The notes under the pieces were generated by a model. That model was not told the origin of the DNA, did not search any database, and worked only from the letters and a program-made list of their open reading frames with translations. DNA of 64,000 nucleotides, from the IMG/VR virus record IMGVR_UViG_3300032167_000069. One strand, written 5' to 3'. This DNA comes from a virus (Duplodnaviria; Heunggongvirae; Uroviricota; Caudoviricetes). Shown one piece after another: positions 1 through 59,780 of the stretch; positions within the stretch are counted from its first letter, which is position 1; each line of letters opens with the position of its first letter. A program made the translations under genes and the position numbers.

Positions 1-393
1 ATAAGAAAGTCCTGAACCAAAAGCTTGGCTTGCATCAGATTGCTGACCTACCATAGCCCACGGTACGATAACTCTGTCTTCAGGTTTATCATTGTTGACC
101 CAATGCCACTCCATATCGCAATGAACAAGAATTTCATTTACTTTATCTTCATAAATCTTTCCATCCCTCGTGGACTTTGTTTTTGTGTAGCTGTATGGTT
201 CTACCTGAGTAGTACCACCAACAATATTGGGCACAAGAGAAACACCAAGCTTATCCATTAATCCTGTTATCTTTGAAAGAATGACGTCTTCGGTTACATA
301 CTTATAACCGTACCCATCTTTATTTTTCTGTAAAATTTCAACAGGCTTACGGATTTTTGCAAGTTTTTGATAAATATTAAGTTCTTCAGCCAT
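1..393 (-). CDS. Phage protein, partial: gene starts at 393 and runs leftward off the window. Possible ssDNA-binding/annealing-type protein.
   Basis: A GGAGGG ribosome-binding site sits 4 nt before the ATG at 391-393 (minus). The frame stays open to position 1: MAEELNIYQKLAKIRKPVE... The six-frame track omits it only because no stop falls inside the window. Confidence 0.4.
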   Translation of the reverse strand, partial: MAEELNIYQKLAKIRKPVEILQKNKDGYGYKYVTEDVILSKITGLMDKLGVSLVPNIVGGTTQVEPYSYTKTKSTRDGKIYEDKVNEILVHCDMEWHWVNNDKPEDRVIVPWAMVGQQSDASQAFGSGLSY

Positions 394-444
394 ATAGCCC
401 TCCATTTATTATTCTTTATAATTGCATTGAACGGAAAAAATTTT

Positions 445-699
445 TTACTTCATCAAAACAACATTGTCTAAGAAGGTATAATATGTCTTTCCATCAATTT
501 TAACTTGTATTGCATCGGAATCCGAATAATCCTTCCAAGATTCAACCTTTCCTGATACAGTTGAACCATCTGGCATTGCAATAATTGCACTGTCAAACGA
601 ATATGTAGTATCAATTATCTGCTGATTGCATCCTGATAAAAATAACACGGCAATCAATGCTATAACTGACAACAATAAACATACTGTCTTCTTGCTCAT
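445..699 (-). CDS. Small lipoprotein
   Basis: The internal start MSKKTVCLLLSVIALIAVLFLSGC gives a signal peptide plus lipobox (LSGC). The upstream part of the listed ORF overlaps the neighbouring gene. Confidence 0.45.
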   Translation of the reverse strand: MSKKTVCLLLSVIALIAVLFLSGCNQQIIDTTYSFDSAIIAMPDGSTVSGKVESWKDYSDSDAIQVKIDGKTYYTFLDNVVLMK

Positions 700-700
700 T

Positions 701-1327
701 TTACTTAACCTCATTTCCTTCTTCCGCTTCGAGAAGATATGTCGCTTCCATATCAGCCAAGTGCAGCATTGCTGCCAATGGACACATCTCATAAGCTTTA
801 CTCATAGAAAAATCTCCGCCCTTCACGGCTGCATCAAATCCACCCATATGGTGCCTTATTGCAAGCAATTCATCAACGGATAACTCTTTCAAAAACCATT
901 GAATTATAATGCAACTTTTCTCACCGTGACCAATCGGAAACCTTTCGTCAACTTCATAAACCTCTTTTTTATACCACTGACCCGTTTCTTCATCTTTAAC
1001 GTTTCTTGTACCAACTTTGTAATAATTGGCTTTGCATAAATCGTGAAACAATGAACAAATCGCTATAGTTTCTTCGCTGATATTTAATTCTGGATATTTC
1101 TTAGCCATTCGCAATAAACATTCATACACATTCAATGAGTGAAAAACCAACCCACCGGCATATGAACCGTGAAATCTTGTGCTTGCTGGAGCAATAAAGA
1201 AATCGCTTTTCTCAAGCCAATCTATAAGTTCATTAATGCCTTCTCTATTTATTTTTTCTTTGCAAATACTCAAGAATTTATCTTTTAATGCTTGTATATC
1301 CACTTTCAGCATCCTCCTTTCATTCAA
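701..1327 (-). CDS. HD-domain phosphohydrolase
   Basis: The H..HD..K and HHMGGFD motifs (FHDLCK ... HHMGGFD) are typical of the HD metal-dependent phosphohydrolase superfamily. Confidence 0.6.
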   Translation of the reverse strand: MNERRMLKVDIQALKDKFLSICKEKINREGINELIDWLEKSDFFIAPASTRFHGSYAGGLVFHSLNVYECLLRMAKKYPELNISEETIAICSLFHDLCKANYYKVGTRNVKDEETGQWYKKEVYEVDERFPIGHGEKSCIIIQWFLKELSVDELLAIRHHMGGFDAAVKGGDFSMSKAYEMCPLAAMLHLADMEATYLLEAEEGNEVK

Positions 1328-1542
1328 AGATATCTATGTAAACCCTTTCGGGATAATTGTTTTAATAACACATAATATAATTTCAACGCTAATTTTTGAT
1401 GCCATCTTAAATTTTCATAATCATTTAAGGTTGGTTGTTGTGTATATGATGTGCTATGTTCTGGTTCTGAACACTTGTGACAAACCATTCTGCCTTCAGG
1501 TATGATTTTGCCACAACAGACGCAAGTATCGACGTTTTCCAT
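1324..1542 (-). CDS. Small zinc-ribbon protein
   Basis: CVCCGK...CHKC gives a CxxC...CxxC pair. Confidence 0.4.
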   Translation of the reverse strand: MENVDTCVCCGKIIPEGRMVCHKCSEPEHSTSYTQQPTLNDYENLRWHQKLALKLYYVLLKQLSRKGLHRYL

Positions 1543-1645
1543 CTCTCAATCACCTCTAACTATGTAATGATAGATTCTTTGAAACACCGTGAAAAAGAAC
1601 GGATAAATCGCTACTTTTCCCTAATGTTCAAATCGAAAATCAAAT

Positions 1646-2425
1646 TTAATGAACCGGAGATTTCCAGTTTTCATTTCTCAAATCAAAGGCATTGCCACAT
1701 TGTATAATGTCAGGAAAGTTACTGTGTGCTATTTCGATAGCATATTTATCAATTTCATAGGCGTAATATTTTATATTCGTAAACCCCATTTTGTCCAAGC
1801 AATATCTGCCTGTACCAATGCCATCATACATAGACAAAACAATAATTTCTTCATCTTTAGGTATGCCTTTTAAAACCTCATTTAAAATATGTATAATAAT
1901 CTCAGCAGTCCAACCATTTCCTAAAGCTTTACGAGCTTGATTAATGGAAACTGCTCTGCAATAATTTGATGGTAAGGTTTGTAGTCTACAACTCTCTGCA
2001 ACGGAAAGTTTTCTTATGGAATAAAACCCGTCTGTCAAATTCAAATCAATATATTTATCTTTAATTTTTATTTGACCATTTTTAACTTCGTAATCGCAAT
2101 CTATATAACGTCCAACCTCTTCTGGCGGATGTTCTATATATTTTATTGGGATTGCATACAAACCTGTTTTCGCACCTAACCCTCCACCAGCAGCTATCTG
2201 TGTTACGCTTTTACCATATGCGGAATAAATTCTTTCCCCTTGTCCACCTTTTCCTATCTTTCCAAGCAAGAGCGGTTTATTACAATATTCATTACTTAAT
2301 AAAATATTGTTTTTATACACATCTTTTGCGAAAGGAGGAATGTGTGATGATAAAGCTATTATTGGGAGGTTCTCCCTGTACTTACTGGAGTATTGCACAG
2401 AAGAACAACCGTGAAATTGAAGCAA
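1646..2425 (-). CDS. C5 cytosine DNA methyltransferase fragment carrying motifs IX-X followed by motifs I-III. True start uncertain.
   Basis: ESCRLQTLP...GNGWTAEII matches motifs IX/X. LSMYDGIGTGRYCL matches motif I. YAYEIDKYA...NFPD matches motifs II/III. No PC or ENV motif is present in this frame. The listed start overlaps the plus-strand gene 2347..2703. Confidence 0.5.
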   Translation of the reverse strand: MLQFHGCSSVQYSSKYRENLPIIALSSHIPPFAKDVYKNNILLSNEYCNKPLLLGKIGKGGQGERIYSAYGKSVTQIAAGGGLGAKTGLYAIPIKYIEHPPEEVGRYIDCDYEVKNGQIKIKDKYIDLNLTDGFYSIRKLSVAESCRLQTLPSNYCRAVSINQARKALGNGWTAEIIIHILNEVLKGIPKDEEIIVLSMYDGIGTGRYCLDKMGFTNIKYYAYEIDKYAIEIAHSNFPDIIQCGNAFDLRNENWKSPVH

Positions 2426-2703
2426 GCGGACAAGGTTGGGAGCTATTCAAAAACTATCTTATAGCAAAAGAAAAATTCCAGCCCGATTACTTTCTTTATG
2501 AAAATAACAAGTCCGCATCGCCTCAAATTAAAGAACAAATATGCCGAGAATTAGGCACTAATCTAATGTATATAAACAGCTCGCTCGTTTCCGCCCAGAA
2601 CAGACAGAGGTTTTACTGTTTTAATTGGGAAGTTGAGCAGCCGGTTGATAGGAATTTAGTATTGAAAGATATTTTAGACGCCGATGATAAAAACAATATT
2701 TGA
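2347..2703 (+). CDS. C5 cytosine DNA methyltransferase fragment carrying catalytic motifs IV-VIII only
   Basis: AGGAGG lies 9 nt upstream of the ATG at 2347. GGSPCTYWS matches motif IV (a PC variant), YENN matches motif VI, SAQNRQRFY matches motif VIII. The ORF ends soon after motif VIII. Confidence 0.5.
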   Translation: MIKLLLGGSPCTYWSIAQKNNREIEASGQGWELFKNYLIAKEKFQPDYFLYENNKSASPQIKEQICRELGTNLMYINSSLVSAQNRQRFYCFNWEVEQPVDRNLVLKDILDADDKNNI

Positions 2704-2708
2704 GACTT

Positions 2709-3386
2709 TTACCAAAGCTTGATAACTTTGTCGTAAAGTACAGTGTGTTTCTCATCCACATCTTGGTCAACGTGGTAATGACCACAATACCAATGATTAA
2801 ATTTTACATCTTCATCAATACATCTGAAGAAGTTTGTCAATTTATCGTGACTAAAGTGCTCCGATATTCTATCCTGTGTATTATCACTTGCACAATGAGT
2901 AAAAATATATTCTACTTCATTGTCATTCTTTTTCAAGTTTGATAGAGCTTCTGCATACTCCTCTTCGGATGGCATTTCTCTATCCCACCACGTCATACCT
3001 TCAATTCGATATTCTTTGTCGTGAGACTCAGCTCCGCCCATAGTGAATATCTTATGCCCGTCAATTGTATATACTTGTCCACGCATAAGATGGATAATAG
3101 AGTCGGAAATCATATGTACCTTTCCGCCATTCCACTCTACTACCGGTAATTCATCAAGAGCTTCGTGATTCTCGTGATTACCGTCTATATATAAAGTTGT
3201 CCAGTTCTTGCTGTTAAACCATTTCTGTATATAGGCGTCGTGGGAATCCATATCCCACACAGCAGCACAGTCACCGCAGATTAAAACATAATCGTTTTTG
3301 GTTAATGCTTTACTGTCAAATCTTTTTGAAGTTAATTTGTATATGTCATAATCTCCGTGAGTATCACCACATACATATAAACTCAT
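2709..3386 (-). CDS. Calcineurin-like metallophosphoesterase (Ser/Thr phosphatase family)
   Basis: GDTHG, GDCAAVWD and GNHE motifs. Confidence 0.65.
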   Translation of the reverse strand: MSLYVCGDTHGDYDIYKLTSKRFDSKALTKNDYVLICGDCAAVWDMDSHDAYIQKWFNSKNWTTLYIDGNHENHEALDELPVVEWNGGKVHMISDSIIHLMRGQVYTIDGHKIFTMGGAESHDKEYRIEGMTWWDREMPSEEEYAEALSNLKKNDNEVEYIFTHCASDNTQDRISEHFSHDKLTNFFRCIDEDVKFNHWYCGHYHVDQDVDEKHTVLYDKVIKLW

Positions 3387-3516
3387 AATCGCTACCTCCT
3401 AAAATCAATATAAAACAAGGATTTTATTATTTCTTTTTCAACGAATTAATGATTTCAGGCAGAGCTTCACATACTATAAATACACATACAACAACTGTAA
3501 TACAAATTAATTCCAT

Positions 3517-3777
3517 TTAGATTGCCTCCTTGCCAAGCAAGCCCTCAAAATTCGATACAATCTTGGAGTTTTCATTTCTCAGTTTATCAAGGGTGTTTTG
3601 CTCGTTCTCAATAGCCTTCAGTCTTTGTACATTGGCTGCCTTTTCTTCATCAATTCTTTGGTTTGTATCCTTTAAAGAGTTGATAAGGGTATGTATAACG
3701 CCAATAGCCTGACTTGATTGCTCCTGCAATGTTTCGAGTACACTCTTCTGAGCCGTCTTTTTAAATAGCTGAACCAT
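3517..3777 (-). CDS. Hypothetical coiled-coil protein
   Basis: ORF of 86 aa with a heptad-like charged sequence. Confidence 0.35.
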   Translation of the reverse strand: MVQLFKKTAQKSVLETLQEQSSQAIGVIHTLINSLKDTNQRIDEEKAANVQRLKAIENEQNTLDKLRNENSKIVSNFEGLLGKEAI

Positions 3778-3955
3778 AGTTATATATCCTTTCTATTAAA
3801 TATTAGCAATTATTCTCTCAAACTCTTCTATGTTAACAATAGGAGGTTCTTTTTCTTTGCTACGCCTAAGAACCCACTTTGTTACATTTAAAATTTTCTT
3901 GTGAGACCAATCGCTATGTTTTGTTTTAATGCTAAAATAAATTGTCAAAAAATGA

Positions 3956-5035
3956 TTATTCATCGTGCTTTAACAAGAATAAAGGATCGACGGCTTTAAA
4001 GCTCTGCTTACCGTCTTTACTTCTAAAAACCAAACCTTCTCTCAAAGTTTCGTGAAGTTGGCTCTGACCGTGAGCATAATCAAGAACCTCATTGACTGTA
4101 TCTGGTAACACATAATCTGTTGCAATAATAGGAACAAATTTCAAACCGTGTTGATTACAAATACTCTGAGCGGTTAAAGAATTCATCCTGCCTGTTGGAT
4201 AGATTAAATTAAATATGTATAAATCAGGCTCAGTAACCTTATACTTATTGCCTTGTACATTGGATGCAATGCATTCACCTTGTAATGCAATCCAATCTCT
4301 ATCACCAATCATATTCTTTAATGCGTTTTCAATTTGATATCTATCTGAAACACGCCAATATGATGAGTTATCTTTTGCTCCCAGTCTAAGATTTCTCGAA
4401 CAAACTATGTATTCAAACTTATCTTTTATTAATGGAATCCTTGATTTGTGACGTACTAAACAGAATGTTCCGCTTTGACCATCAATCTTTTCTGTAACAA
4501 TCCATTCCCTTTTGTCGTTTAGTATAAATGGCATATTTTGAATTCGTGTTTCATCTGTCTTACTAATGAAGTCAGGAAAACCTTTCTTTTGTTTTTTAGG
4601 TAACACAAGCTTTCTAAACCATTTAAACCTCATCAGAAATTTAGGGTACTTCTTAGCTTTGGTAGATACTTCGCTTCCCTCTGTTTCCCTATCCATTGTC
4701 TTTTCATATTGTTTAATCCCGATTATTTCTGTAACATCATCTTCGAGTTTGTACTCTCCCTCTGGCAAAATCGAGAGAGGAAAACAAATACCCTGAGAAA
4801 TCACACCTGCCATTTTCATCGTTTTAATTCTGTAATTATTTTTGCTTAAAAACTCAAATTCAGGCTTCGCAGGCAAAACAGAATCGATTTCAACGTAAAC
4901 GCATTTGTCTCCAATTTTAAACTCATCCTTTTTAACAATTACGCTCCAACCATCGACCATAGCCAAAACTATCCTGTCTTTACCTTCTATCGGAATGATA
5001 TCCGAGATAGCCTTAATGCTTGCCAATTTTCTCAT
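3956..5035 (-). CDS. ATP-dependent RNA ligase family nucleotidyltransferase
   Basis: TEKIDGQSG is a KxDG motif I of covalent nucleotidyltransferases. Its size and its neighbourhood with a kinase/HD enzyme suggest an RNA-repair ligase. Confidence 0.55.
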   Translation of the reverse strand: MRKLASIKAISDIIPIEGKDRIVLAMVDGWSVIVKKDEFKIGDKCVYVEIDSVLPAKPEFEFLSKNNYRIKTMKMAGVISQGICFPLSILPEGEYKLEDDVTEIIGIKQYEKTMDRETEGSEVSTKAKKYPKFLMRFKWFRKLVLPKKQKKGFPDFISKTDETRIQNMPFILNDKREWIVTEKIDGQSGTFCLVRHKSRIPLIKDKFEYIVCSRNLRLGAKDNSSYWRVSDRYQIENALKNMIGDRDWIALQGECIASNVQGNKYKVTEPDLYIFNLIYPTGRMNSLTAQSICNQHGLKFVPIIATDYVLPDTVNEVLDYAHGQSQLHETLREGLVFRSKDGKQSFKAVDPLFLLKHDE

Positions 5036-5614
5036 TTAATCATTTCCTTCCTTTGATAGTATTTCATCGAGTGTTACAGGTTCGTAATCCCAATACATAC
5101 ATCCAACGTTATATATGCGATTTTGAAAACCTGCATCATTTAATGTTTTTGCTATTTTTCTCTCTTCTACTGCCTCAGCCGTAGTGTGAGAATGACCGTG
5201 CAAATGAACTGTGCCATAATAATGTCCGTTATACATTGGCATAAAATAATGGCTTAATATACATCTTTGCTTATTACCATTTTCAAGAGTAACCACTATG
5301 TCATCGTAGTCTTTTATCCCGGCTAAACATTTCTTTGCCTTTGCATTATGTAAAAATTTATCGTGATTACCTTTGATTAGAATTATTTGACCATTTAATT
5401 GATTTAAAATATCTGAAGCATCATTATTACGAGTTGACCAAATTAAATCGCCTAAAACATACACAAGGTCTCCCGGTGATACTTTTTTATTCCATCTACG
5501 AATTAATTCTGCATCCATCTCCTCTACTGATGTAAAGGGTCTATTATCAAATCTTAGGACATTTGAATGTCCGAAGTGTAAGTCACTTGTAAAAAACACT
5601 TTTTGCTTTTGCAT
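5036..5614 (-). CDS. Metallophosphoesterase
   Basis: DLHFGH, GDL, GNHD and HGHSH motifs. Confidence 0.6.
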   Translation of the reverse strand: MQKQKVFFTSDLHFGHSNVLRFDNRPFTSVEEMDAELIRRWNKKVSPGDLVYVLGDLIWSTRNNDASDILNQLNGQIILIKGNHDKFLHNAKAKKCLAGIKDYDDIVVTLENGNKQRCILSHYFMPMYNGHYYGTVHLHGHSHTTAEAVEERKIAKTLNDAGFQNRIYNVGCMYWDYEPVTLDEILSKEGND

Positions 5615-5625
5615 ACTTTCACCTC

Positions 5626-6528
5626 TTAATGTGCTTCTCTATCGCACTCATGCAACATCATAATGTCATCATAAAACTGCTCGCCCAACAACTTCTTATA
5701 ACGTTTCTTTGTTTTTTCGAGAACCCAAAAATACGGAGCCATATGCCACTGTATATATGCGGCTCTTGATAAAACTTCTAAAGTATTTGAAACGCCACCC
5801 TGTTCAAACAAACTCATATATGCTGAAACGTGATGATGTTCATAATAATGTGCGACTCCATCTTTAAACGATTGTGTGTAAACCTTACCAATATCGTGTA
5901 ATAATGCAGCCTCTTTTAAGCTATCTACAAAAGTTGAACCACACATTATCTTATAGCAGTCATACATATGTTCACCGAGCGAAAGGCTGTGATGTGGATT
6001 CTTTTGGTCAAAGTCATATAACAATGAAGTTTTGTTAATCAAACCTTCAATATTATTTCCTGCACAATATTCGTCTGGATAACATAATTGAATATCATTC
6101 CAACCCTCATACCAATATGGTGTATAAAAAGCTCTGACCATTTTCCATATTACTTCTTTATCAACGACCCTGCTTCTCTGCTTTTGTCTATTGATACACT
6201 CTCTTATGGGTGTAGCCATTACAACAGCTATTGCTTTAAATTCAAATTTGCTTCTTAATTGTTCGAGCAACACCTTACGTCTTTTATAGTTAATGTTTGT
6301 TGCGTCATAGATTACAGACTTTCCTTGTCCTAATGCTGTAATCGTTCTTTTATACATTTCCTCGAAAACTTTAGTATTGTCAGTTTGGTCAGAAGCATCA
6401 CCAAACAATTCTTCTCTTATTGCATCCGAGGATAAAAGTATCGCATTATGTACCTTTGCAAGTTCCTTTGCTTTTTCTGTTTTCCCCGAACCCGGAAGAC
6501 CGACCATTTGAATAAACTTTAATTCCAC
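5626..6528 (-). CDS. Bifunctional P-loop polynucleotide-kinase-like / HD phosphohydrolase protein
   Basis: N-terminal GLPGSGKT Walker A and C-terminal HD motif (LHDIGK). This architecture is found in RNA end-healing enzymes. Confidence 0.55.
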   Translation of the reverse strand: MELKFIQMVGLPGSGKTEKAKELAKVHNAILLSSDAIREELFGDASDQTDNTKVFEEMYKRTITALGQGKSVIYDATNINYKRRKVLLEQLRSKFEFKAIAVVMATPIRECINRQKQRSRVVDKEVIWKMVRAFYTPYWYEGWNDIQLCYPDEYCAGNNIEGLINKTSLLYDFDQKNPHHSLSLGEHMYDCYKIMCGSTFVDSLKEAALLHDIGKVYTQSFKDGVAHYYEHHHVSAYMSLFEQGGVSNTLEVLSRAAYIQWHMAPYFWVLEKTKKRYKKLLGEQFYDDIMMLHECDREAH

Positions 6529-6531: not shown

Positions 6532-7314
6532 CTACACCTCCAGTTCCATCAAAAACGACTTTTTCAACACGTTTATAAGAACATTGTTCATCAACTCCTC
6601 GACCTCGCCGTTAATAGCCAATGGCGTTTTGTTCATATACTCATTTTTCATTTCAATTGTTTCATCAAGCTTTTCTTTGGCTATTTTTCTTGCTTCGTCT
6701 AATGAATGACAACCACGTTTCACATCAATCAAATATTCAGATATTTCTGATTTTAAACACGCTTTATAAGTTTCTCCAGAAATGTATCTGCGTGTGAATT
6801 CGTGCATTCTTAATATGTGATGAAGTTGCTTTGGATCGTAACCATACTTCTGAATTTTCTCCACCAAAGTTGGATACGGATGTTCAAGGGCTTTATACTT
6901 CTCCATACTCATTCCAGCCATACAGTTGACAAATGCATAATTGTTATATCTTGCAATCAATTCTGCGTTATCAAGCATTGGCTGATATAAGGATTTGAAA
7001 GCTTCATTTATAAGGTTGTATTTTGTAAACAAAATTTCTACAAAATTAACATTCTGCTTTTTAAAGCACTCGAACATCAATCGAATATCTTTTAAATCAA
7101 TGTGTTCGTTGGATGGAAGTATAAGTGTAGTGCTTACGGGTTTCTTGTTAAGACAGAAATCTTCAAACGAGGGTAACACAATACATTTGGTGTCTATATC
7201 GCTCCCTTCATACTCCAATCCGTAGTTTTGAGAGCCTTGTAAGAATACGCCTAACACCTTATATCCCAAACCTTCGACATATTGGAAATCTTCATTTAAA
7301 CGTTTATGTATCAT
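6532..7314 (-). CDS. Pol-beta-superfamily nucleotidyltransferase
   Basis: The GS...YGLEYEGSDIDTKC pattern (GS x9-13 DxD). Confidence 0.45.
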   Translation of the reverse strand: MIHKRLNEDFQYVEGLGYKVLGVFLQGSQNYGLEYEGSDIDTKCIVLPSFEDFCLNKKPVSTTLILPSNEHIDLKDIRLMFECFKKQNVNFVEILFTKYNLINEAFKSLYQPMLDNAELIARYNNYAFVNCMAGMSMEKYKALEHPYPTLVEKIQKYGYDPKQLHHILRMHEFTRRYISGETYKACLKSEISEYLIDVKRGCHSLDEARKIAKEKLDETIEMKNEYMNKTPLAINGEVEELMNNVLINVLKKSFLMELEV

Positions 7315-10123: not shown

Positions 10124-11167
10124 CTACATAGTGAATGCACATTTCCATTTTTCATAATCTGCAAGATACTCACGTTTCATCCTGTTAGATATTGTTGTGA
10201 GCGTTCTTGTTTTAGTGGTTGTGTATTTTTTAATTTTTTCTTTTCTGTCTATCTCAAGTGCAATAATGTTTGAAAAATCCACGGGTAAACCTGCACGTTC
10301 TTGCTCATAAGCTCTATAAAATATACCAGAAAGATAGATGCGTTTATAGGAAATCCTGCTCTTTTGACGGTTTGTGTCTTGTCGATTATCCATGTCATTT
10401 TCTGAGAATTTCTTATTAATTATAGGTCTTATAGTTTTTAAATCAACCGTTGGAGACCTAAATCCACGCATAATTACATTTCCTTCAGCTCTTGGTCTGC
10501 AAGTAACATAATGTGGATGTTCATAATTGAATGCGGTTAGTTTGCAAGCTTTTTCAAAATCTTCCTTGCACTCTTTATAGATTTCATAACTATGTCCTTC
10601 AAAATTAATCTTTAGATTATCTAAATCAACATCGTCTGATGTTACCCTAACCGCATCTTTATCTTCAAGCCCCGCAAAAGCCATCCAAAGGAACACTCTA
10701 TATGTTATATCCACTGTTTCTTTCTCCAATGAATCAAAATTACTTTTTTCATCATCAAGTATAGCTTTTAGATGGAGCGGAGATGCAACCATTTGATTTT
10801 GGATTTTATCTATGGTGTTAATTCTAACATCAAATATACCTTTGCTTACCTCGTATCCATTACGAGCGCACCATTTTACATATTCCTTTAAAATAATTAT
10901 AATTAATTCAGTGCTCTTTTCTCTCACGCCAGTCAATTCATTCACTACCGGCTGTAATACATCGGTTGTCTGTTGGGATAAATCAAGCCCCCATACATTT
11001 TCATATGGTTCAAACCAATTAAACACCTGCGTAATAAATGCTGACGTACTCTTTTTATGGGTATATGATGCCAAAAACTCTCTTTTCACTTTTTCGTTGT
11101 ACATATACAAACACCTCCCCTTAGTTATGCAGCTACAATACAATTCATCTGAACAGCCTTTTCCCAT
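10124..11167 (-). CDS. Hypothetical protein
   Basis: ORF of 347 aa. Confidence 0.45.
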   Translation of the reverse strand: MGKGCSDELYCSCITKGRCLYMYNEKVKREFLASYTHKKSTSAFITQVFNWFEPYENVWGLDLSQQTTDVLQPVVNELTGVREKSTELIIIILKEYVKWCARNGYEVSKGIFDVRINTIDKIQNQMVASPLHLKAILDDEKSNFDSLEKETVDITYRVFLWMAFAGLEDKDAVRVTSDDVDLDNLKINFEGHSYEIYKECKEDFEKACKLTAFNYEHPHYVTCRPRAEGNVIMRGFRSPTVDLKTIRPIINKKFSENDMDNRQDTNRQKSRISYKRIYLSGIFYRAYEQERAGLPVDFSNIIALEIDRKEKIKKYTTTKTRTLTTISNRMKREYLADYEKWKCAFTM

Positions 11168-16725: not shown

Positions 16726-18036
16726 CTATTCGTAATTTACTTCATTTTTGTCTGTTCTTAATGCAACAAATACTGGGAACTGCAAACTTTCTGCATTTGT
16801 CCTCTTATCTGTTGATATTTCCTTATATTTAACTTCGCACAACATTCCGATTAAGTCATCCTTTTGCTTCCAATACAGTTGTCGTTGTTCGTCTGAAAAA
16901 CCAGAGCCCACCTTTACCTCGTTTCCTTTGTAATCGAGAACAAGAGCCCCCAACGTGCCTGATAACCTGCCTCCGCCCTCTTCATATCCGATGATTGGCA
17001 AGTCCATAGTATAAAACCGTTTAACTTTTAATATGCCATTATGCCTACAGCACTTATACGGAACATCAAGATTAACCATCAACCCTTCTTTATCCTCTTC
17101 TACCATTTTGTTGAGATAATAATTAATCTTTTCCACATTGCTCCCGCTATATAATACTGGTAGCACTTTTACATCATCACCCAATCGGTGAAGGCGAGAT
17201 ATTTTCATCAAATGTGCTCTTCTAAGAGAATAATTCAACGTTCCTTTATTTGAGCAAAACTCGTCTGTTGGGATTACATCAAACATTGTAAAACAGATAT
17301 CAGATTTATCACCATCGGAGTTAATTATTCCTGTGGCAACTCTAAATGCTTCATTGTCGCTTAATTCTCCCTTGTTTTTTAATGTAAGTTCTCCATCATA
17401 AACCATATCGCCATCAAGACTTTTTAATACCCTGATGATATGATCGAGTCCCTCAAATGGCATTCCGCTTCTTGCAATAAGTTCACCGTTATAGTATGTT
17501 GCTCTCACACCATTTAGTTTCTGAGTAAGAGTAAACCAAGCACCGTCTTTAATCGGATATTTTTCTATTGGGTATGCTTGTTGAACTTCCCATTCCGGAA
17601 TTAAATCAGGAATTACCTTATTAACAGTTTTCGCAGTAATCCCAAGTTTCAAAGACTTGGAGAGAATTTTTATATAAAACACTCTTTCATCTTCTGTGCA
17701 TTTCTTAAATAAGAAAGAATGGATTAACTCTATGAGTGCACTATTCACACTTTTAAGTTTTGATAAATGATCACATAATTCAAAAATATCATCAAACGCA
17801 TCAACCTTACGTTCTACGACTGGACTTACAACTAATTTTTTGGCTATTTCTTTTGAAATGTTATATGTAAGCAGTGGATTTAATGTATAAAAGAGTAGTT
17901 TTATAAACATTTCATTATCTTTGTTGTTTGCGATAATTTCTTGTTTTTTAAGCATTCCTCTTGTGTCTTTCAGCTTATTGATTTGCTCAATAGCCTCTAA
18001 CATCTTTTGCATCAAATCACCCCTTATCGCATTCAT
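16726..18036 (-). CDS. ATP-dependent DNA ligase
   Basis: KLNGVRA is motif I (KxDG/NGxR); the 436-aa ORF is nucleotidyltransferase plus OB sized. Confidence 0.6.
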   Translation of the reverse strand: MNAIRGDLMQKMLEAIEQINKLKDTRGMLKKQEIIANNKDNEMFIKLLFYTLNPLLTYNISKEIAKKLVVSPVVERKVDAFDDIFELCDHLSKLKSVNSALIELIHSFLFKKCTEDERVFYIKILSKSLKLGITAKTVNKVIPDLIPEWEVQQAYPIEKYPIKDGAWFTLTQKLNGVRATYYNGELIARSGMPFEGLDHIIRVLKSLDGDMVYDGELTLKNKGELSDNEAFRVATGIINSDGDKSDICFTMFDVIPTDEFCSNKGTLNYSLRRAHLMKISRLHRLGDDVKVLPVLYSGSNVEKINYYLNKMVEEDKEGLMVNLDVPYKCCRHNGILKVKRFYTMDLPIIGYEEGGGRLSGTLGALVLDYKGNEVKVGSGFSDEQRQLYWKQKDDLIGMLCEVKYKEISTDKRTNAESLQFPVFVALRTDKNEVNYE

Positions 18037-30211: not shown

Positions 30212-30301
30212 TGGCGGAGAGTAGAGGACTCGAACCTCTGCCCCGGATAAACGGGGAACGGTTTAGCAAACCGTGGCAGTACCAACTATGCTTAACTCTC
30301 C
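30212..30301 (-). tRNA. tRNA-Ser (GCU)
   Basis: Acceptor ggagagt/actctcc, anticodon arm acggt-ttGCTaa-accgt, long variable arm, T-arm, CCA. Confidence 0.7.
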
Positions 30302-30463
30302 ATATTGGCTCTTAGGTCAGCCAGCCGCACATCTTAACCCGAAAAATACTGGGGTTGGAATTTGCTCCCAAACAGCAGACTATTGCGAACTTGTGGTCTG
30401 CCAGCACGACTCATTTAATTTCTCCTCTATAGGATGCGGCACAGTGACATAACTGTGCAGTAC

Positions 30464-30551
30464 TGGCGGAGGGTCAGAGACTCGAACTCTGAAGCCCTTG
30501 CGGACTCGGCAGTTTTCAAGACTGCTGCCTTACCAATTAGGCTAACCCTCC
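30464..30551 (-). tRNA. tRNA-Ser (UGA)
   Basis: Acceptor ggagggt/accctcc, anticodon loop ctTGAaa, long variable arm, CCA. Confidence 0.65.
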
Positions 30552-30716
30552 ATATGGAAGCTTCCCCCGTAGGGAGGTATTACCAACCCACTTGCAAGTT
30601 TGCTGCTTTTTTAATTTAACCCATCCTAAAGCACCTGAAACACTGGGCATCCCGTGAAACCTTTTTTGAGGTGTCACCCTCGGAGTGGAGTACGGGCAAC
30701 GACAATCTCTCCCGAC

Positions 30717-30792
30717 TGGTCTGAGTAGCAGGTCTCGAACCTGCGACCTCGTGTTCCCAAAACACGTGCTCTACCAACTGAGCTATACCCAG
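30717..30792 (-). tRNA. tRNA-Pro (UGG)
   Basis: Canonical D-arm gctcagttggtagagc, anticodon arm cgtgt-ttTGGga-acacg, T-arm gcagg-ttcgaga-cctgc, CCA. Confidence 0.75.
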
Positions 30793-30800
30793 ATATATAA

Positions 30801-30874
30801 GTGTAGACTGACGACTTGAACGTCACCCCTCGACTAACACGAGACTCAGTACTCCCAATTATACGAAGCCTACA
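30801..30874 (-). tRNA. tRNA-like element (degenerate; D and anticodon arms not resolved)
   Basis: T-arm tgacg-ttcaagt-cgtca. Acceptor tgtaggc/gtctaca with a G-U pair. Confidence 0.3.
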
Positions 30875-30877
30875 CTT

Positions 30878-30964
30878 TGGTGCCGCTGACCGGACTTGAA
30901 CCGGTACGGTATTACTACCGAGGGATTTTAAGTCCCTTGTGTCTGCCAATTCCACCACAACGGC
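30878..30964 (-). tRNA. tRNA-Leu (UAA)
   Basis: D-loop gtggaattggcagacac, anticodon arm aggga-cuUAAaa-ucccu, long variable arm, T-arm, CCA. Confidence 0.7.
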
Positions 30965-30967
30965 ATA

Positions 30968-31044
30968 TGGTTGCGGGGGTGGGACTCGAACCCACGACCT
31001 CCAGCTTATGAGGCTGGCAAGCTGACCATCTGCTCTACCCCGCA
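30968..31044 (-). tRNA. tRNA-Met/fMet (CAU)
   Basis: Acceptor tgcgggg/ccccgca, anticodon loop ctCATaa, T-arm gtggg-ttcgagt-cccac, CCA. Confidence 0.7.
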
Positions 31045-31049
31045 ATATA

Positions 31050-31132
31050 TGGTGCCCGTAGCAGGACTCGAACCTGCACTCTCACGAACTGGTTCCTAAG
31101 ACCAGCGTGTCTGCCAATTCCACCATACGGGC
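31050..31132 (-). tRNA. tRNA-Leu (UAG)
   Basis: Acceptor gcccgta/tacgggc, anticodon arm ctggt-ctTAGga-accag, long variable arm, T-arm gcagg-ttcgagt-cctgc. Confidence 0.7.
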
Positions 31133-32864: not shown

Positions 32865-34019
32865 TCACGATAAATCCCCCTTTATTAGCTTTTCTATGTC
32901 TGCGCCAAACTTCTGGTTATTATGAGAAATAACATAGTTTATATAATCTGGCTCAATCATTCTATAATAGGAAATAAGCCCAGCAAATACTTGTACGTCG
33001 TGCCTATCCCAATTAACGTTTTTCTTTTTGTCGCAAATATAATTGCAACACATAGCTTTGAATGCTTTTTTCTTTTGATGACCAATGGTTATCTCGTTAT
33101 CTTTGTTAAGCATAACACCCAAATTCCAGTTCCGACCAGCGGATGAACCGTATCTCGTTTTTTCTTTTTTGATTGCAAATGGAGCATCAAATCTTTTCAG
33201 AACATCGAGAACATATTCCTGCACCGCTTTGTAATCAAAATTCACTTTTGATGAAATCAAAATATCATCAGCATATCGTGTGTAAACAAAATGCTCGTCC
33301 ATCTTCCTTAAATCATTACAAAGTTGATGGTCGATTGGAATCATCATAATATTGGTGATTGTCGGCGATATAGGTGTTCCCTGTGGCAAACCGCCGTTTA
33401 AAAAACAAAGACTCAAAGCTCTTTTTAAGGCTTCGAGTCCATTTCTTCTTTTCACTATTTCACTAAACGGGAATATTTTTGAAAACATTGATAACACAAA
33501 CTCCTCTGTTGTGCTACCAAAAAAGTCCGAGAAATCAAGTTTTGCGAACCATTTACTTTCGTTCTGCTGATGTCTCTTAATTGAGTCAATTGTGCATCTA
33601 CCTTTTACATATGCAAAAGCAGATGTATGATACAATGCAAACATATTCTTTTCAAAAATAGTTTTCAAATTACGCAATGCATTCATCAATTCAGGTACAG
33701 GTGCATTAATTTCTCTCAAACCGCCACTTTTCTTTGGTATATGGAACGTTTCATACAGCGACTTCCTATCTACCTCAAATAAATTTGCATATTGAGAATT
33801 AAACTGTTCAAGAGCATAAATCATTGCGTTAAAATTGAATTTATCAAGAAATTTTTCGTTTAACTGCTCTCTGTAATGTGTTCTTGTGTTTGTTACATTG
33901 GGCACAATCATTCTTGATACATCAACCGCACCCGCCAGAATATCATCTAATGATAACTGATAATATATTGGCGATTGTTGAATTGTTACATAAGGCATAC
34001 TAATTCTCCTTTCGTACAT
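32865..34019 (-). CDS. Reverse transcriptase, retron/Abi-like type (not DGR type)
   Basis: IPKKSGGLREINAP (RT motifs 1/2), AKLDFSDFFGS (motif 3), GLPQGTPISP (motif 4), YTRYADDILISS (motif 5, YADD). KTRYGSS...NLGVMLN...IGHQKKKAF follows the pattern of the retron region after YADD. AYVKGRCTIDSIKRH sits at the NAxxH position. At 384 aa it has no maturase or endonuclease domain. Confidence 0.75.
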   Translation of the reverse strand: MYERRISMPYVTIQQSPIYYQLSLDDILAGAVDVSRMIVPNVTNTRTHYREQLNEKFLDKFNFNAMIYALEQFNSQYANLFEVDRKSLYETFHIPKKSGGLREINAPVPELMNALRNLKTIFEKNMFALYHTSAFAYVKGRCTIDSIKRHQQNESKWFAKLDFSDFFGSTTEEFVLSMFSKIFPFSEIVKRRNGLEALKRALSLCFLNGGLPQGTPISPTITNIMMIPIDHQLCNDLRKMDEHFVYTRYADDILISSKVNFDYKAVQEYVLDVLKRFDAPFAIKKEKTRYGSSAGRNWNLGVMLNKDNEITIGHQKKKAFKAMCCNYICDKKKNVNWDRHDVQVFAGLISYYRMIEPDYINYVISHNNQKFGADIEKLIKGDLS

Positions 34020-34059: not shown

Positions 34060-34290
34060 GATGCTAAGCTTTTGCTGGTAACTTGGTCATCAGTGAGATG
34101 AGAGTTCATCTGATGAAAACCCAGTATTTATGCGGTATTTCTCTATTGATGGATTTGGGCAGACCTGTCGGGAAGCGTAAGCCACGGCTGTGGGTGATTG
34201 CCATCCTGAGCTGTCTCCCTGTGTTTTTCTCCAGCAAAGTGTTACTTTGGCTTATAACACAAAGCATCTGAAAACTCAGATTATTCATTA
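34060..34290 (-). ncRNA. Structured GC-rich ncRNA locus B, immediately upstream of the RT start (retron msr/msd-like position)
   Basis: Conserved module at 34216-34262. Inverted repeats cttttgctgg (34069-34078) and ccagcaaag (34221-34229) bracket about 160 nt. Several GC hairpins are present. The ORF 34106..34288 is a translation of the repeat. Confidence 0.5.
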
Positions 34291-34873: not shown

Positions 34874-35039
34874 TGAAAATACGCTCCTTTACATATAAAA
34901 TCAGTCTTTTATAAACACCTACGATCAAACATTATAAAATACAATCTTGAGGAAATCCGGATACCTTCGTCGGAACCACTTCAGATATATAAATTATAAA
35001 TTAAAGTAGGGATTTGTCTATGAAAAGTGTTGATAAATT

Positions 35040-42420: not shown

Positions 42421-42449
42421 CTTCTTGCCTCCTTGAGTTATGATAATTA

Positions 42450-50747: not shown

Positions 50748-51578
50748 ATGGGAACCATTATTTCAATTGACTTTACATCAAAGGTGAATAAGAAGAATGA
50801 CGGTATCATAAATGCAAAGGTTGTATCCGACTCCCGAAGATACCTTAAAAGAGATGCTCTTCTTCCGGCTCAAGAAGAAGTTCATATCGAACTTGCAAAC
50901 GAGCATACATCAGAACCAATTAAAAGCCTTGAAGATATAGAACGTTTTTCAAGCTATCTCATAAACAATGGTAGATACAGAGACAATATGCTCTTTATAG
51001 TTGGTATTAACTTTGGACTTCGTGTAAGTGATTTATTACAGTTAAGATTTACTCAGCTCATTAATGATGACCTATCTTTCAAAACCACATTCCCTATTCT
51101 GGAAAAAAAGACTAAGAACACCAGAAAGGTAAGACGTAACAGATACTTAACCATTAATGATGCAGTAATGGATGCAATTACACTGTACCTTGAACATACG
51201 CAGTGCAGGCTTGACGATTATATGTTCCGCAGTGAAAGCAACAGAGGCTCTAATCTTAACAAACCAATGAGCAGAATGTCAGTTGACCGCATTCTCAAAG
51301 AGGTTGCTAACACACTCAATTTGGATGTCAAGATTGCTACTCACACTATGAGAAAGACATTTGCTTATCATCAGATGTTAATGTCCAACAACGATCCTCG
51401 TAAACTTTTATTATTACAAAAGATGTTTGGACACTCATCAGCAGCACAGACACTCGACTACATCGGTATTACTGGTGAAGAGATTGAAGAAGCTTATATA
51501 AAGCTCAACTTGGGAAGCAGAGACCATTATCTTGTTGATAGCGTTATACAGGAGACTACATATTATCCTGCAAGCTAA
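50748..51578 (+). CDS. Tyrosine recombinase/integrase (small)
   Basis: ATHTMRKTFAYH gives HxxR. C-terminal LDYIGIT carries the catalytic Tyr. An arginine-containing box I region is present. Confidence 0.6.
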   Translation: MGTIISIDFTSKVNKKNDGIINAKVVSDSRRYLKRDALLPAQEEVHIELANEHTSEPIKSLEDIERFSSYLINNGRYRDNMLFIVGINFGLRVSDLLQLRFTQLINDDLSFKTTFPILEKKTKNTRKVRRNRYLTINDAVMDAITLYLEHTQCRLDDYMFRSESNRGSNLNKPMSRMSVDRILKEVANTLNLDVKIATHTMRKTFAYHQMLMSNNDPRKLLLLQKMFGHSSAAQTLDYIGITGEEIEEAYIKLNLGSRDHYLVDSVIQETTYYPAS

Positions 51579-58733: not shown

Positions 58734-59780
58734 TTGAAAGGAGTGACTTGCGTGGCGAGGAAAACGAAGATGAATTTATTGACAAGCGAAGAGTTAATTA
58801 AGCAGGTCAATCCAGAAAACTTACGATTAAAAAAGGACTTCTTGGCTTACCTACAATCTTTGCAAAGAAGTCCTAAAACTATATATTGTTACGAAAATGA
58901 CCTTGATATATTTTTTGTTTGGAATGCTCAAAATAATGGGAATAAATTCTTCCCCCAGATAACCAAAAGAGATTTGGTAGCATATCAACACTGGTTATTA
59001 AATGAAAATGGCAACTCCCCCGCTCGTGTTCGTAGATTAAAATCTACAATATCTTCTCTAAGCAATTATATTGAAAGTATTTGTGATGACGAACCAGAGT
59101 TTCAAGGATTTCGTTCTATAATTAAGAAAGTTGAAAATCCTGTTAATCAACCAGTCAGAGAGAAGACTGTTTTGAAGGATGAGCAATTGGATGATTTGCT
59201 AAATTATTTAGTAGAAAAGAAAAAATATGAAAAAGCCTGTATGCTTGCTTTAGCAATGTGTTCGGGAAGACGTAAAGCTGAGCTTGTTAGATTTAAAGTT
59301 TCTTACTTTGATGATGAAAATATTATATATGGTTCACTTTATAAAACACCGGAGAAAGTTAAAACAAAAGGTCACGGTAACGGGAAATACATAAATTGCT
59401 ATACGCTATACCATAAATTTAAGCCTTATCTTGATTTATGGCTTAAAGAGCGTAAGATTCTTGGAATAGAAAGTGAATGGCTCTTCCCAAACAAATCAAA
59501 TCACGAGGAGCATTTGAAACCCGAAACATTAAATAGCTGGGCTAATACATTTACCAGAATATTGGGTGTAGATTTTTATTGGCACTGTTTAAGACATTAC
59601 TTTACCACTCATTTAGTTCGTATGGGGCTTCCTGATGGTGTAATTCAAGATATTATAGGTTGGTCATCGGCTGATATGTTGAGGTTATATACAGATATTC
59701 CTGTAGATGAACAATTAGGTAAGTATTTTGATGAAAACGGTATTAAGTCGGTAGAAAAGAAATCTATATCTGATTTATAA
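58734..59780 (+). CDS. Tyrosine recombinase (XerD/integrase-like)
   Basis: WHCLRHYFTTH gives HxLRH. C-terminal LRLYTDI carries the catalytic Tyr. An N-terminal SAM-like core-binding domain is present. Confidence 0.6.
   Translation: MKGVTCVARKTKMNLLTSEELIKQVNPENLRLKKDFLAYLQSLQRSPKTIYCYENDLDIFFVWNAQNNGNKFFPQITKRDLVAYQHWLLNENGNSPARVRRLKSTISSLSNYIESICDDEPEFQGFRSIIKKVENPVNQPVREKTVLKDEQLDDLLNYLVEKKKYEKACMLALAMCSGRRKAELVRFKVSYFDDENIIYGSLYKTPEKVKTKGHGNGKYINCYTLYHKFKPYLDLWLKERKILGIESEWLFPNKSNHEEHLKPETLNSWANTFTRILGVDFYWHCLRHYFTTHLVRMGLPDGVIQDIIGWSSADMLRLYTDIPVDEQLGKYFDENGIKSVEKKSISDL

What the first reader, a model, noticed from the sequence alone, without database searches (positions are those of the whole stretch)
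1646..2703. C5-methyltransferase motifs split across two head-to-head ORFs on opposite strands
The minus-strand ORF encodes motifs IX/X followed by I-II-III and then stops exactly where motif IV (PCQ) should begin. The missing catalytic core (motifs IV PC, VI ENN, VIII QxRxR) is encoded on the plus strand about 200-700 bp away, with its own strong AGGAGG RBS. Neither ORF alone is a complete enzyme. Possible explanations are an inverted segment (pseudogene or invertible switch), a two-subunit permuted MTase, or a sequencing or assembly inversion.
Basis: seen in the sequence. Interest (0 to 1): 0.55.

Follow-up and report, generated by a model that had tools for sequence, protein, structure and literature searches.

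The report
Flip switch in phage methylase gene
A gut-phage gene for a DNA cytosine methylase is cut in two because its first third, with its ribosome-binding site, sits on a 370-bp segment flanked by 15-bp inverted repeats; near-identical phages carry that segment in either orientation, so it looks like a reversible on/off switch caught in the off position.

Summary
ORF 1646-2425 (-) carries TRD, IX, X, I, II, III. ORF 2347-2703 (+) carries IV, VI, VIII and has its own AGGAGG site.

A perfect 15-nt inverted repeat (2302-2316 / 2687-2701) brackets the 370-bp segment that holds the ribosome-binding site, start codon and motifs IV-VIII. Inverting that segment in silico gives one seamless 336-aa ORF. 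This ORF is colinear with thousands of single-chain homologues, so the family is circularly permuted (IV-VIII, TRD, IX-X, I-III) and the stop after motif III is its normal end.

Public contigs of the same phage group show both orientations, with breakpoints exactly at the repeats. Two off/on pairs differ by no more than 9 positions outside the segment, yet lie on backgrounds that differ at 34 positions. The inverted piece is under strong purifying selection (dN/dS 0.03). A second, unrelated phage contig has the same architecture, with repeat arms that co-vary in their central 6 bp.

Best reading: a programmed inversion switch (partial-intergenic inverton) for a phage orphan C5-methyltransferase, here in the off state. 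Pseudogene and assembly error are rejected; a two-subunit enzyme is unlikely.

The invertase, the GCGC specificity and the biological payoff are inferred. No on-state contig was found for the window's own sub-lineage.

The parts
1646..2301 (-). Fixed 3' two-thirds of the methyltransferase gene: TRD (HhaI-like, 2156-2254), motif IX (1970-2014), X (1907-1921), I (1808-1828), II (1748-1762), III (1682-1696), natural stop at 1646-1648
   Evidence: Colinear with residues 118-336 of the full-length natural proteins P0163 and P0158.
2302..2316 (.). Inner inverted-repeat arm (AAATATTGTTTTTAT on the + strand). It lies in frame in the coding sequence (K-N-N-I) and is part of the perfect dyad ATAAAA-N6-TTTTAT at 2299-2316.
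2317..2686 (.). 370-bp invertible segment, here in the OFF orientation. It carries the SD (2332-2341), the ATG (2347) and codons 1-113 (motifs IV, VI, VIII).
   Evidence: In-silico inversion gives one 336-aa ORF. The same segment is found in the opposite orientation in L091-L094, with breakpoints at the inner IR edges.
2347..2703 (+). N-part ORF (118 aa) as it reads in the OFF state: motifs IV (2365-2382), VI (2494-2508), VIII (2596-2610). It ends in the outer arm (KNNI) followed by TGA.
2687..2701 (.). Outer inverted-repeat arm (ATAAAAACAATATTT), 5 nt after the stop of the upstream gene. In the ON state it lies upstream of the SD.
2709..3386 (-). Upstream gene of the same minus-strand transcription unit (calcineurin-like phosphoesterase). 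In the ON state the methyltransferase follows it directly.
10124..11167 (-). Candidate recombinase 1: protein with an MrpR-type N-terminal core-binding domain. It is conserved near the locus in L091. No catalytic domain was detected by Pfam or NCBIfam.
50748..51578 (+). Candidate recombinase 2: tyrosine recombinase (Phage_integrase, Xer-like)
58734..59780 (+). Candidate recombinase 3: tyrosine recombinase (SAM-like N domain plus Phage_integrase), between the YonJ-like and HU/YonG-like genes

Best explanation
The locus is one gene for a circularly permuted DNA cytosine-5 methyltransferase (order IV-VI-VIII, TRD, IX, X, I, II, III) in a large SPbeta-like phage of ruminant-gut Clostridia. The one host hint is a Ruminococcus MAG.

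The 5' module of the gene (SD, ATG and codons 1-113) lies on a 370-bp segment bounded by 15-16-bp inverted repeats. One arm is just upstream of the SD. The other is in frame at the motif VIII/TRD junction.

Conservative recombination between the arms flips the module:
- ON: a single 336-aa enzyme is made from the long minus-strand operon.
- OFF (the window): the catalytic N-part points the wrong way, and the remaining C-part has no conserved start or SD, so no enzyme is expected.

Shown here: the anatomy, the seamless in-frame restoration, both states in nature on near-identical backgrounds, at least two independent flips, purifying selection, and a second lineage with co-varying arms.

Inferred:
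- The flip is catalysed by a site-specific (probably tyrosine) recombinase of phage or host.
- The enzyme methylates GCGC (HhaI-like TRD).
- The switch hedges between evading classical restriction (methylated progeny) and avoiding methyl-dependent restriction or the cost of methylation (unmethylated progeny).
For: 1. A perfect 15-nt IR sits at 2302-2316 / 2687-2701. This is rare by simulation.
2. Inverting 2317-2686 gives a 336-aa ORF with no gap at the joint. More than 8000 homologues exist, and many cover 99% of it as one chain. Pfam PF00145 positions 62-322 map to residues 2-261, and HhaI residues 15-55 map to residues 274-316. An AF2 model has pLDDT 77.7 and pTM 0.79, with M.HhaI as best PDB match (E 2e-12).
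3. The 90% cluster of the C-part holds two natural 336-aa proteins. Their contigs L091-L094 have the same synteny, both arms, and the segment inverted exactly at the inner arm edges.
4. blastn of L089 (OFF) against L091 (ON): flanks are 99.85-100% identical on one strand and the central 401 nt are 100% identical on the other. The same holds for L096 (OFF) against L092 (ON); L098 and L100 show the same inverted 401-nt core with more flank differences. ON contigs L091 and L092 differ at 34 of 680 flank positions, yet each has an OFF partner at 0-1 differences. This implies at least two flips.
5. Window against L001: the N-part has 33 synonymous and 6 non-synonymous differences (omega 0.027). The C-part has omega 0.083, similar to neighbouring genes.
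6. An unrelated phage contig (L085/L238) has the same head-to-head layout. Its arms are ATAAAA-GCGACA-(T/C)TT, against ATAAAA-ACAATA-TTT here, and inversion restores a 348-aa ORF.
7. None of 201 other loci with same-strand genes has such an IR.
8. The C-part has no conserved start. The GTG in the window is GTA in L001 and L086, and the ATG of L001 is absent here. No SD is present.
Against: - ON contigs were found only in one sub-lineage (4 ON against 10 OFF).
- The window's own sub-lineage (about 29 contigs), a second sub-lineage (4 contigs) and L085 are all OFF, and the exact fused proteins are not in the collection.
- No read-level data were available, so coexistence of both states within one population is not shown.
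- No recombinase gene adjoins the switch. None lies in the 15-kb L238 contig.
- The arm core coincides with a dyad motif (ATAAAA-N6-TTTTAT) that recurs upstream of other genes. Part of its conservation could therefore have a regulatory cause.
- Motif III reads GNAFD rather than the family's near-invariant GDAF.
- No methylation data exist.
Confidence: 0.8

Rival explanations
1. Two-subunit enzyme. In the OFF arrangement, the 118-aa N-part (IV-VIII) and the C-part (TRD-IX-X-I-III) are both made from divergent transcripts and assemble into an active methyltransferase. The inversion would then be a stable design rather than a switch.
For: - The N-part keeps a strong SD and start, and is under purifying selection.
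- OFF is by far the commoner state in assemblies.
[quoted passage not shown] Natural M.AquI is split at that site (PMC5944983).
Against: - The C-part has no conserved start codon or SD in a Firmicute-type genome, and gene callers choose four different starts for it.
- The tail of the N-part after the arm is not conserved: an immediate TGA here, 7-11 extra codons elsewhere.
- Full-length single-chain genes exist in the same phage and are the family norm.
- Co-varying repeat arms are not needed for a fixed split.
Confidence: 0.07
2. Neutral or deleterious rearrangement. Rare recombination between two chance or regulatory repeats inverts the segment. OFF alleles are simply knock-outs drifting in phage populations, with no selected switching.
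For: - Loss-of-function alleles of this family are common elsewhere. L241 has an in-frame TAA, and L239 has a frameshifted or truncated TRD.
- The arms overlap a dyad motif used upstream of other genes.
- There is a strong OFF bias.
Against: - Sub-lineages that are both OFF differ by dS about 0.8 in the inverted piece, with omega 0.027. The piece must therefore be expressed often enough to be selected.
- At least two independent flips occurred between near-identical genomes.
- The same architecture, with matched changes in both arms, occurs in an unrelated phage.
Confidence: 0.1
3. Assembly or sequencing artefact: the segment was mis-oriented by the assembler.
For: Short repeats at both ends of a small segment are a classic place for mis-joins. 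ON contigs come only from one assembly resource (Logan).
Against: - The repeat (15-16 nt) is shorter than the k-mers used (31 to 141), so junction k-mers must come from reads.
- OFF is reproduced in JGI, ENA (two pipelines), NCBI MAG and Logan contigs.
- ON is reproduced identically in three samples, plus a 28.5-kb contig from another study.
Confidence: 0.01

Closest known systems
Partial-intergenic / intragenic invertons of gut bacteria (Jiang et al. 2019; Chanin et al., PMC10028968) and gene-altering programmed inversions (Milman et al. 2023, PMC9881135)
   Same: A short segment bounded by short inverted repeats is flipped. One arm lies outside the gene and one inside. One orientation gives the full protein, and the other truncates it. 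Both states are seen in natural populations.
   Different: - It is carried by a phage, not a bacterial chromosome.
- The target is an orphan C5-methyltransferase, split at the motif VIII/TRD junction.
- No invertase gene is adjacent.
- Within-sample heterogeneity is not yet shown.

The papers I read list Type I hsdS, Type II/IIG N6 enzymes, BREX, DISARM and tail fibres as inversion targets. In the term-matched passages I read, none of the three mentions a cytosine methyltransferase as a target.
Phage invertible segments (Mu G / Gin, P1 C / Cin)
   Same: A phage-borne DNA inversion produces two kinds of progeny.
   Different: Those swap alternative tail-fibre C-termini, use serine invertases encoded next to the segment, and have 26-34-bp sites plus an enhancer. 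Here there is a simple on/off of an enzyme gene with 15-16-bp arms. No serine recombinase was found in the window.
Phase-variable DNA methyltransferases (phasevarions; Type I hsdS shufflons; Type III mod repeats)
   Same: Reversible genetic switching of DNA methylation capacity.
   Different: Those are bacterial, act by simple-sequence-repeat slippage or by shuffling specificity cassettes, and change host gene expression or specificity. Here a single cassette turns a viral C5 enzyme on or off.
Natural circularly permuted C5-methyltransferases (M.BssHII, M.Alw26I, M2.Eco31I, M.Esp3I, M2.BsaI)
   Same: The conserved C5 motifs are present but not in the canonical I-X order.
   Different: In those, the new N-terminus lies in the variable region (IX-X precede I-VIII). 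A 2018 REBASE survey found only that type in nature (PMC5944983). Here the N-terminus is at motif IV and the C-terminus is after motif III, an order like that of beta-class amino-methyltransferases. The nearest engineered analogue is cp62 M.MpeI (cut between II and III), which was the most active permutant.
M.AquI (natural two-subunit C5-methyltransferase)
   Same: [quoted passage not shown]
   Different: The M.AquI subunits are canonical-order pieces, each with its own translation signals, and are permanently split. Here the break is reversible and the second piece lacks translation signals.
Multispecific C5-methyltransferases of Bacillus phages SPbeta, phi3T, SPR (own knowledge)
   Same: A phage-encoded orphan C5 enzyme in an SPbeta-like genome (YonJ and YonG homologues). 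Relatives of this protein carry two to four tandem TRD-like modules (P0001, P0006).
   Different: Those have canonical motif order and no inversion switch. The window's protein has one TRD.

Membership tests
DNA cytosine-5 methyltransferase (Pfam PF00145) | Motif I (FxGxG-type AdoMet loop) and motif II acidic residue | tested here: met
   YDGIGTG at 1808-1828 and AYEID at 1748-1762. These align to M.HhaI residues 15-55.
DNA cytosine-5 methyltransferase (Pfam PF00145) | Catalytic motif IV Pro-Cys, motif VI ENV-type Glu, motif VIII QxRxR | tested here: met
   GGSPCT, LYENN and QNRQR on the + strand piece. PF00145 positions 62-166 are matched. These residues are invariant in a 42-sequence alignment.
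DNA cytosine-5 methyltransferase (Pfam PF00145) | Motif III Asp contacting AdoMet | tested here: inconclusive
   The window lineage has GNAFD where the family has GDAF. Asn may still hydrogen-bond. The lineage is under purifying selection.
DNA cytosine-5 methyltransferase (Pfam PF00145) | Complete two-domain fold in one chain | tested here: met
   Met for the ON form only. AF2 of P0163 gives pLDDT 77.7 and pTM 0.79. The top Foldseek PDB hits are M.HhaI (E 2e-12, TM 0.54-0.55), with DRM and DNMT3 further down the list.
DNA cytosine-5 methyltransferase (Pfam PF00145) | m5C-forming activity and target sequence | not testable with these tools
   GCGC is predicted only from TRD similarity to M.HhaI (GKGGQGERIYS...GGG.AKTG.Y).
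Programmed DNA inversion switch (inverton) | Segment bounded by inverted repeats | tested here: met
   Perfect 15-nt arms here and 16-nt arms in sister lineages.
Programmed DNA inversion switch (inverton) | Both orientations occur in nature on otherwise identical DNA, with breakpoints at the repeats | tested here: met
   L089 against L091, and L096/L098/L100 against L092-L094. This was seen in a sister sub-lineage about 90% identical to the window, not in the window's own sub-lineage.
Programmed DNA inversion switch (inverton) | Both orientations coexist within one clonal population | not testable with these tools
   No read data were available. Within one run series (SRR33036522-33), 3 samples assemble ON and 4 OFF for the same strain.
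Programmed DNA inversion switch (inverton) | A site-specific recombinase that flips it | tested here: inconclusive
   The window holds two tyrosine recombinases and one MrpR-like protein, at 7-56 kb from the switch. No serine invertase was found. There is none in the 15-kb L238 contig. The arm anatomy (conserved 6-bp flanks, co-varying 6-bp centre) fits a crossover site.
Programmed DNA inversion switch (inverton) | Orientation changes the gene product | tested here: met
   ON gives a 336-aa complete enzyme. OFF gives a 118-aa N-part on the opposite strand, plus a C-part with no start or SD.
BssHII-type (variable-region) circularly permuted C5-MTases | New N-terminus in the variable region, so that IX-X precede I-VIII | tested here: not met
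   The order here is IV-VIII, TRD, IX-X, I-III. The definition is taken from PMC5944983.
M.AquI-type two-subunit C5-MTase | Two separately translated subunits, each with its own start and SD | tested here: not met
   Only the N-part has an SD and ATG. Candidate starts for the C-part are not conserved.
Shufflon / multi-cassette specificity switch | Several alternative cassettes and more than two repeat copies | tested here: not met
   The locus has one segment and two arms. The other two copies of the 11-mer core lie 54 kb away, with no sign of inversion there.

The most novel reading that the evidence does not exclude
The switch is a phage-autonomous bet-hedging device. A phage-encoded tyrosine recombinase flips the 5' module of the methylase gene at a dyad element (ATAAAA-N6-TTTTAT) that doubles as the phage's own gene-start regulatory motif. 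A phage population therefore always contains genomes that will be GCGC-methylated (safe from classical restriction) and genomes that will not (safe from methyl-dependent Type IV restriction).

The enzyme itself would represent a large, so far undescribed natural class of C5-methyltransferases, permuted between motifs III and IV.
Probability: 0.25. Interest if true: 0.8.

Novelty: new member of a known kind. Interest (0 to 1): 0.6.

Why it matters
Inversion switches are well known for bacterial surface structures, for restriction-modification specificity subunits and for phage tail fibres. A reversible on/off switch inside a phage's own anti-restriction methylase is not in the surveys I could read.

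If it works as proposed, it shows a virus hedging between two opposed host defences: restriction of unmethylated DNA and restriction of methylated DNA.

It also gives a compact, testable system. There are 370 bp, 15-bp arms and a read-out by restriction digestion, and natural ON and OFF alleles differ by nothing else.

It is also a warning for annotation. More than 40 public contigs carry this gene as two 'partial' methylase ORFs.

The family itself has thousands of gut-phage members with the order IV-VIII, TRD, IX-X, I-III, some with tandem TRDs. This fills a permutation class that a 2018 survey of REBASE reported as absent from nature.

Tried and rejected
- **megablast of 1-6000 against GenBank phages:** no match.
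- **Junction-spanning peptide search:** it returned only 46 candidates and missed even P0013, so its silence on ON forms was not informative. The ON forms came from the cluster listing instead.
- **Exact look-up of the in-silico fused proteins** of the window, L001, L086 and L085: none is in the collection.
- **Cluster of the L085 proteins:** singletons, with no ON partner.
- **IRs flanking the N-part in 201 same-strand loci:** background only, apart from one unverified 15-nt (1 mismatch) case in L234.
- **Short N-part-only proteins in other lineages:** the two I could look up are a nonsense allele (L241) and a frameshifted or truncated allele (L239), not invertons.
- **Possible second target of the same recombinase at 56461/57226:** all 10 places (23 contigs) have the same orientation.
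- **Promoter and terminator scan of 1400-3600:** counts are at shuffle level.
- **IMG/VR scan for the arm of the second 15-nt IR (34911):** only single chance hits, because the phage lineage is not in IMG/VR.
- **Rfam:** only tRNAs.
- **Reading the arm as a pure Xer/dif-like core site:** I weakened this after finding the same dyad upstream of other genes.

Full report
**1. What is in the sequence**

Two ORFs face each other.

- The minus ORF 1646-2425 carries an HhaI-like target-recognition domain, then motifs IX and X, then I, II and III. It ends at a stop codon.
- The plus ORF, read from its ATG at 2347 (SD AAAGGAGGAA at 2332-2341), carries motifs IV (GGSPCT), VI (LYENN) and VIII (QNRQR), and ends at 2703.

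Pfam PF00145 matches both. Profile positions 62-166 fall on the plus piece, and positions 234-322 plus an N-terminal stretch fall on the minus piece.

**2. The repeat and the in-silico flip**

A perfect 15-nt inverted repeat, AAATATTGTTTTTAT (2302-2316) / ATAAAAACAATATTT (2687-2701), brackets a 370-bp segment. The segment holds exactly the SD, the ATG and codons 1-113.

In the whole 64-kb window there are only two perfect inverted repeats of 15 nt or more within 1 kb. The mean in 100 first-order Markov simulations was 0.2.

Both arms encode K-N-N-I in frame. Inverting 2317-2686 in silico produces one uninterrupted 336-aa minus-strand ORF: MIKLLLGGSPCT...DADDKNNILLSNEY...GNGWT...YDGIGTG...NWKSPVH.

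**3. The joined protein is the family norm**

- The 336-aa sequence has more than 8000 database relatives. Many cover 99% of it as a single chain of 330-460 aa at 50-66% identity.
- In natural full-length members, PF00145 positions 62-322 map to residues 2-261. M.HhaI residues 15-55 (motifs I-II) map to residues 274-316.
- The family is thus circularly permuted between motifs III and IV. The stop after motif III is its normal end, not a truncation.
- An AlphaFold model of the natural ON protein P0163 (42-sequence alignment) has pLDDT 77.7 and pTM 0.79. Its best PDB matches are M.HhaI structures (E 2e-12).
- The TRD is strikingly like that of M.HhaI (GKGGQGERIYS...GGGLGAKTGLY). This suggests, but does not prove, GCGC specificity.
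- More distant relatives have the canonical order.
- A 2018 survey found natural permuted C5 enzymes only with the break in the variable region (PMC5944983). This arrangement appears undescribed there.

**4. Both orientations exist in nature**

The 90%-identity cluster of the C-part has 16 member sequences. Fourteen are truncated 'OFF' products with four different called starts. Two are 336-aa proteins, P0158 and P0163.

The contigs of these two proteins are L091 (28.5 kb, SRR17221324) and L092-L094 (SRR33036527, SRR33036522 and SRR33036529 respectively). They show the same gene order as the window: phosphoesterase, methylase, 72-aa ORF, HD protein, ERF. They keep both repeat arms, and have the segment inverted exactly at the inner arm edges.

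The blastn comparison shows the classic inversion signature:

- L089 (OFF) against L091 (ON): flanks are 99.85-100% identical on one strand and the central 401 nt are 100% identical on the other strand.
- L096 (OFF) against L092 (ON): the same pattern. L098 and L100 against L093 and L094 show the same inverted 401-nt core, with more flank differences (up to 11).

The two ON backgrounds differ from each other at 34 of 680 flank positions. Each has an OFF partner at 0-1 differences. Orientation therefore does not follow phylogeny, and at least two independent flips are needed.

In one run series (SRR33036522-33), the same strain assembles ON in three samples and OFF in four.

**5. Not a decaying pseudogene and not an artefact**

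Between the window and the sister lineage L001 (both OFF), substitution counts are as follows:

| Region | Result |
|---|---|
| Inverted N-part | 33 synonymous, 6 non-synonymous; omega 0.027 |
| C-part | omega 0.083 |
| Neighbouring genes | omega 0.025-0.06 |

The OFF state is reproduced in contigs from JGI, two ENA pipelines, an NCBI MAG (Ruminococcus sp. RGIG6142, sheep rectum) and Logan. The repeat is shorter than any assembler k-mer, so both junction types must be read-supported.

**6. A second lineage**

An unrelated phage-like contig, L085/L238 (NCBI GCA_965335935.1), has Dam, NrdD and a further 528-aa C5 methylase. Its N-part is 74% identical to the window's.

It has the same head-to-head layout, with repeats at the same two positions but a different sequence: ATAAAA-GCGACA-(T/C)TT against ATAAAA-ACAATA-TTT. 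The three changed positions all lie in the central hexamer and are changed in both arms. Inversion restores a 348-aa ORF.

Matched change of both arms is what repeated recombination between them, or a requirement for identical crossover regions, would produce. By contrast, none of 201 loci with the gene in one piece shows such a repeat.

**7. How it most likely works**

- In the ON state, the outer arm sits 5 nt after the upstream gene's stop. It is followed by the SD and ATG, so the gene is read as part of the long minus-strand operon.
- In the OFF state, the catalytic N-part points against that operon. The C-part follows antisense sequence without a conserved start or SD. The window's GTG is GTA in sister lineages, and the ATG of L001 is absent here. 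I therefore infer that OFF means no enzyme.
- The recombinase is not identified. The window encodes two Xer-like tyrosine recombinases (50748-51578 and 58734-59780) and an MrpR-like protein (10124-11167). It encodes no serine invertase. A host enzyme is equally possible.
- The biological rationale is inference. The proposal is hedging between classical restriction and methyl-dependent restriction, or the cost of methylation.
- Two observations fit that rationale. Knock-out alleles are frequent elsewhere in the family. The phage shows extreme avoidance of several restriction sites while keeping 33 GCGC sites.

**8. Caveats**

- ON contigs were found only in one of three sub-lineages (4 ON against 10 OFF). 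The window's own sub-lineage (about 29 contigs) is always OFF, and its arm is 15 nt rather than 16 nt.
- No reads were available to show mixed populations.
- The arm core is part of a dyad, ATAAAA-N6-TTTTAT, that occurs six times in the window (0.05 expected). It lies mostly 4-40 nt upstream of SD sequences, and occurs again in L238. In the ON state the outer arm has this same gene-start layout. The dyad may be a regulatory element that was co-opted, or the binding site of the flipping protein. I cannot tell which.
- Motif III has Asn where the family has Asp.

**9. Comparison and novelty**

Mechanistically this is a partial-intergenic inverton, in the sense of Chanin et al. (PMC10028968). It is related to the gene-altering inversions catalogued by Milman et al. 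(PMC9881135).

It differs from the Mu/P1 tail-fibre switches, from hsdS shufflons and from repeat-driven phasevarions in the ways listed under Closest known systems.

I file it as a new member of a known kind. The kind is the inversion switch. The new member is a phage orphan C5 methylase cut at the motif VIII/TRD junction. The permuted enzyme family is a separate point of interest.

Noticed in passing
window 2299-2316, 3410-3427, 17887-17904, 26404-26421, 34895-34912, 43737-43754; L238 1135, 9959, 11899: The perfect dyad ATAAAA-N6-TTTTAT occurs 6 times in the window (0.05 expected). Four copies lie 4-40 nt upstream of an SD and start on the minus strand. The unrelated phage contig L238 has three copies with at most 1 mismatch (0.07 expected), two of them upstream of gene starts. 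It is probably a phage gene-start regulatory element, and it overlaps the switch's inner arm.
   Followed up: partly
window 56461-56471 (-) and 57226-57236 (+): The 11-mer core of the switch arms (AAACAATATTT) occurs only four times in the window (0.23 expected). The other two copies form an inverted pair flanking ORF 56456-57208, just upstream of a YonJ-like gene and a tyrosine recombinase gene. All 10 places examined (23 contigs) have the same orientation, so there is no evidence of inversion there.
   Followed up: yes
window 34911-34925 / 35207-35221: This is the only other perfect 15-nt inverted repeat within 1 kb (ATAAACACCTACGAT). It brackets a 281-bp G+C-rich intergenic segment between a DUF6273 gene (35225-36106) and a 122-aa ORF, 0.9 kb from a reverse transcriptase gene (32865-34019, RVT_1). 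It could be a second inverton or part of a retroelement. A 58-nt direct repeat (34216-34273 / 35134-35191, 74% identical) lies in the same area. It could not be tested because the lineage is absent from IMG/VR.
   Followed up: partly
whole window: Extreme avoidance of short palindromes. Observed against expected: GGCC 0 vs 72, CGCG 0 vs 58, CCWGG 0, CATG 13 vs 206, GATC 29 vs 202, GCGC 33 vs 76.
   Followed up: partly
window 25074-25495, 30215-31132, 42079-42571, 44167-44409: Thirteen tRNA genes on the minus strand. Five of the matches span 107-126 nt (25176-25283, 42079-42204, 42453-42571, 44167-44286, 44293-44409), which suggests inserts or introns.
   Followed up: no
window 700-22400 and 26650-27438: A dense set of likely counter-defence genes. 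RNA repair: RNA ligase 3956-5035, AAA_33/KTI12 kinase-type protein 5626-6528, RlaP 6532-7314, Thg1, HD and Metallophos proteins. NAD salvage: NAMPT/NAPRTase, NAD synthase, PRPP-synthetase-like. Also a PemK/MazF-type toxin and an ATP-dependent DNA ligase.
   Followed up: no
P0001, P0006 and other homologues: Longer members of the permuted family carry two to four tandem TRD-like modules (repeats of ...RVYS..GKSVT..GGG.G.KTGLY...). They may be multispecific enzymes, as in SPbeta/phi3T-type phages.
   Followed up: no
L241 3001-3798; L239 3001-3965: Other lineages carry the gene on one strand but broken. L241 has an in-frame TAA between motif VIII and a short TRD (three contigs). L239 has a frameshifted or truncated TRD. 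Loss-of-function alleles seem common in this family.
   Followed up: partly
window 1682-1696: Motif III reads GNAFD in the window lineage (all three sub-lineages), where the family and L085 have GDAF. The usually conserved AdoMet-contacting Asp is Asn here.
   Followed up: no
L234 (MAG Ruminococcus sp. UBA3855), around 196-700: A canonical-order relative has a 15-nt inverted repeat (1 mismatch) flanking its motif IV-VIII region. This could be chance (the score is just above the controls) or another intragenic inversion site.
   Followed up: no
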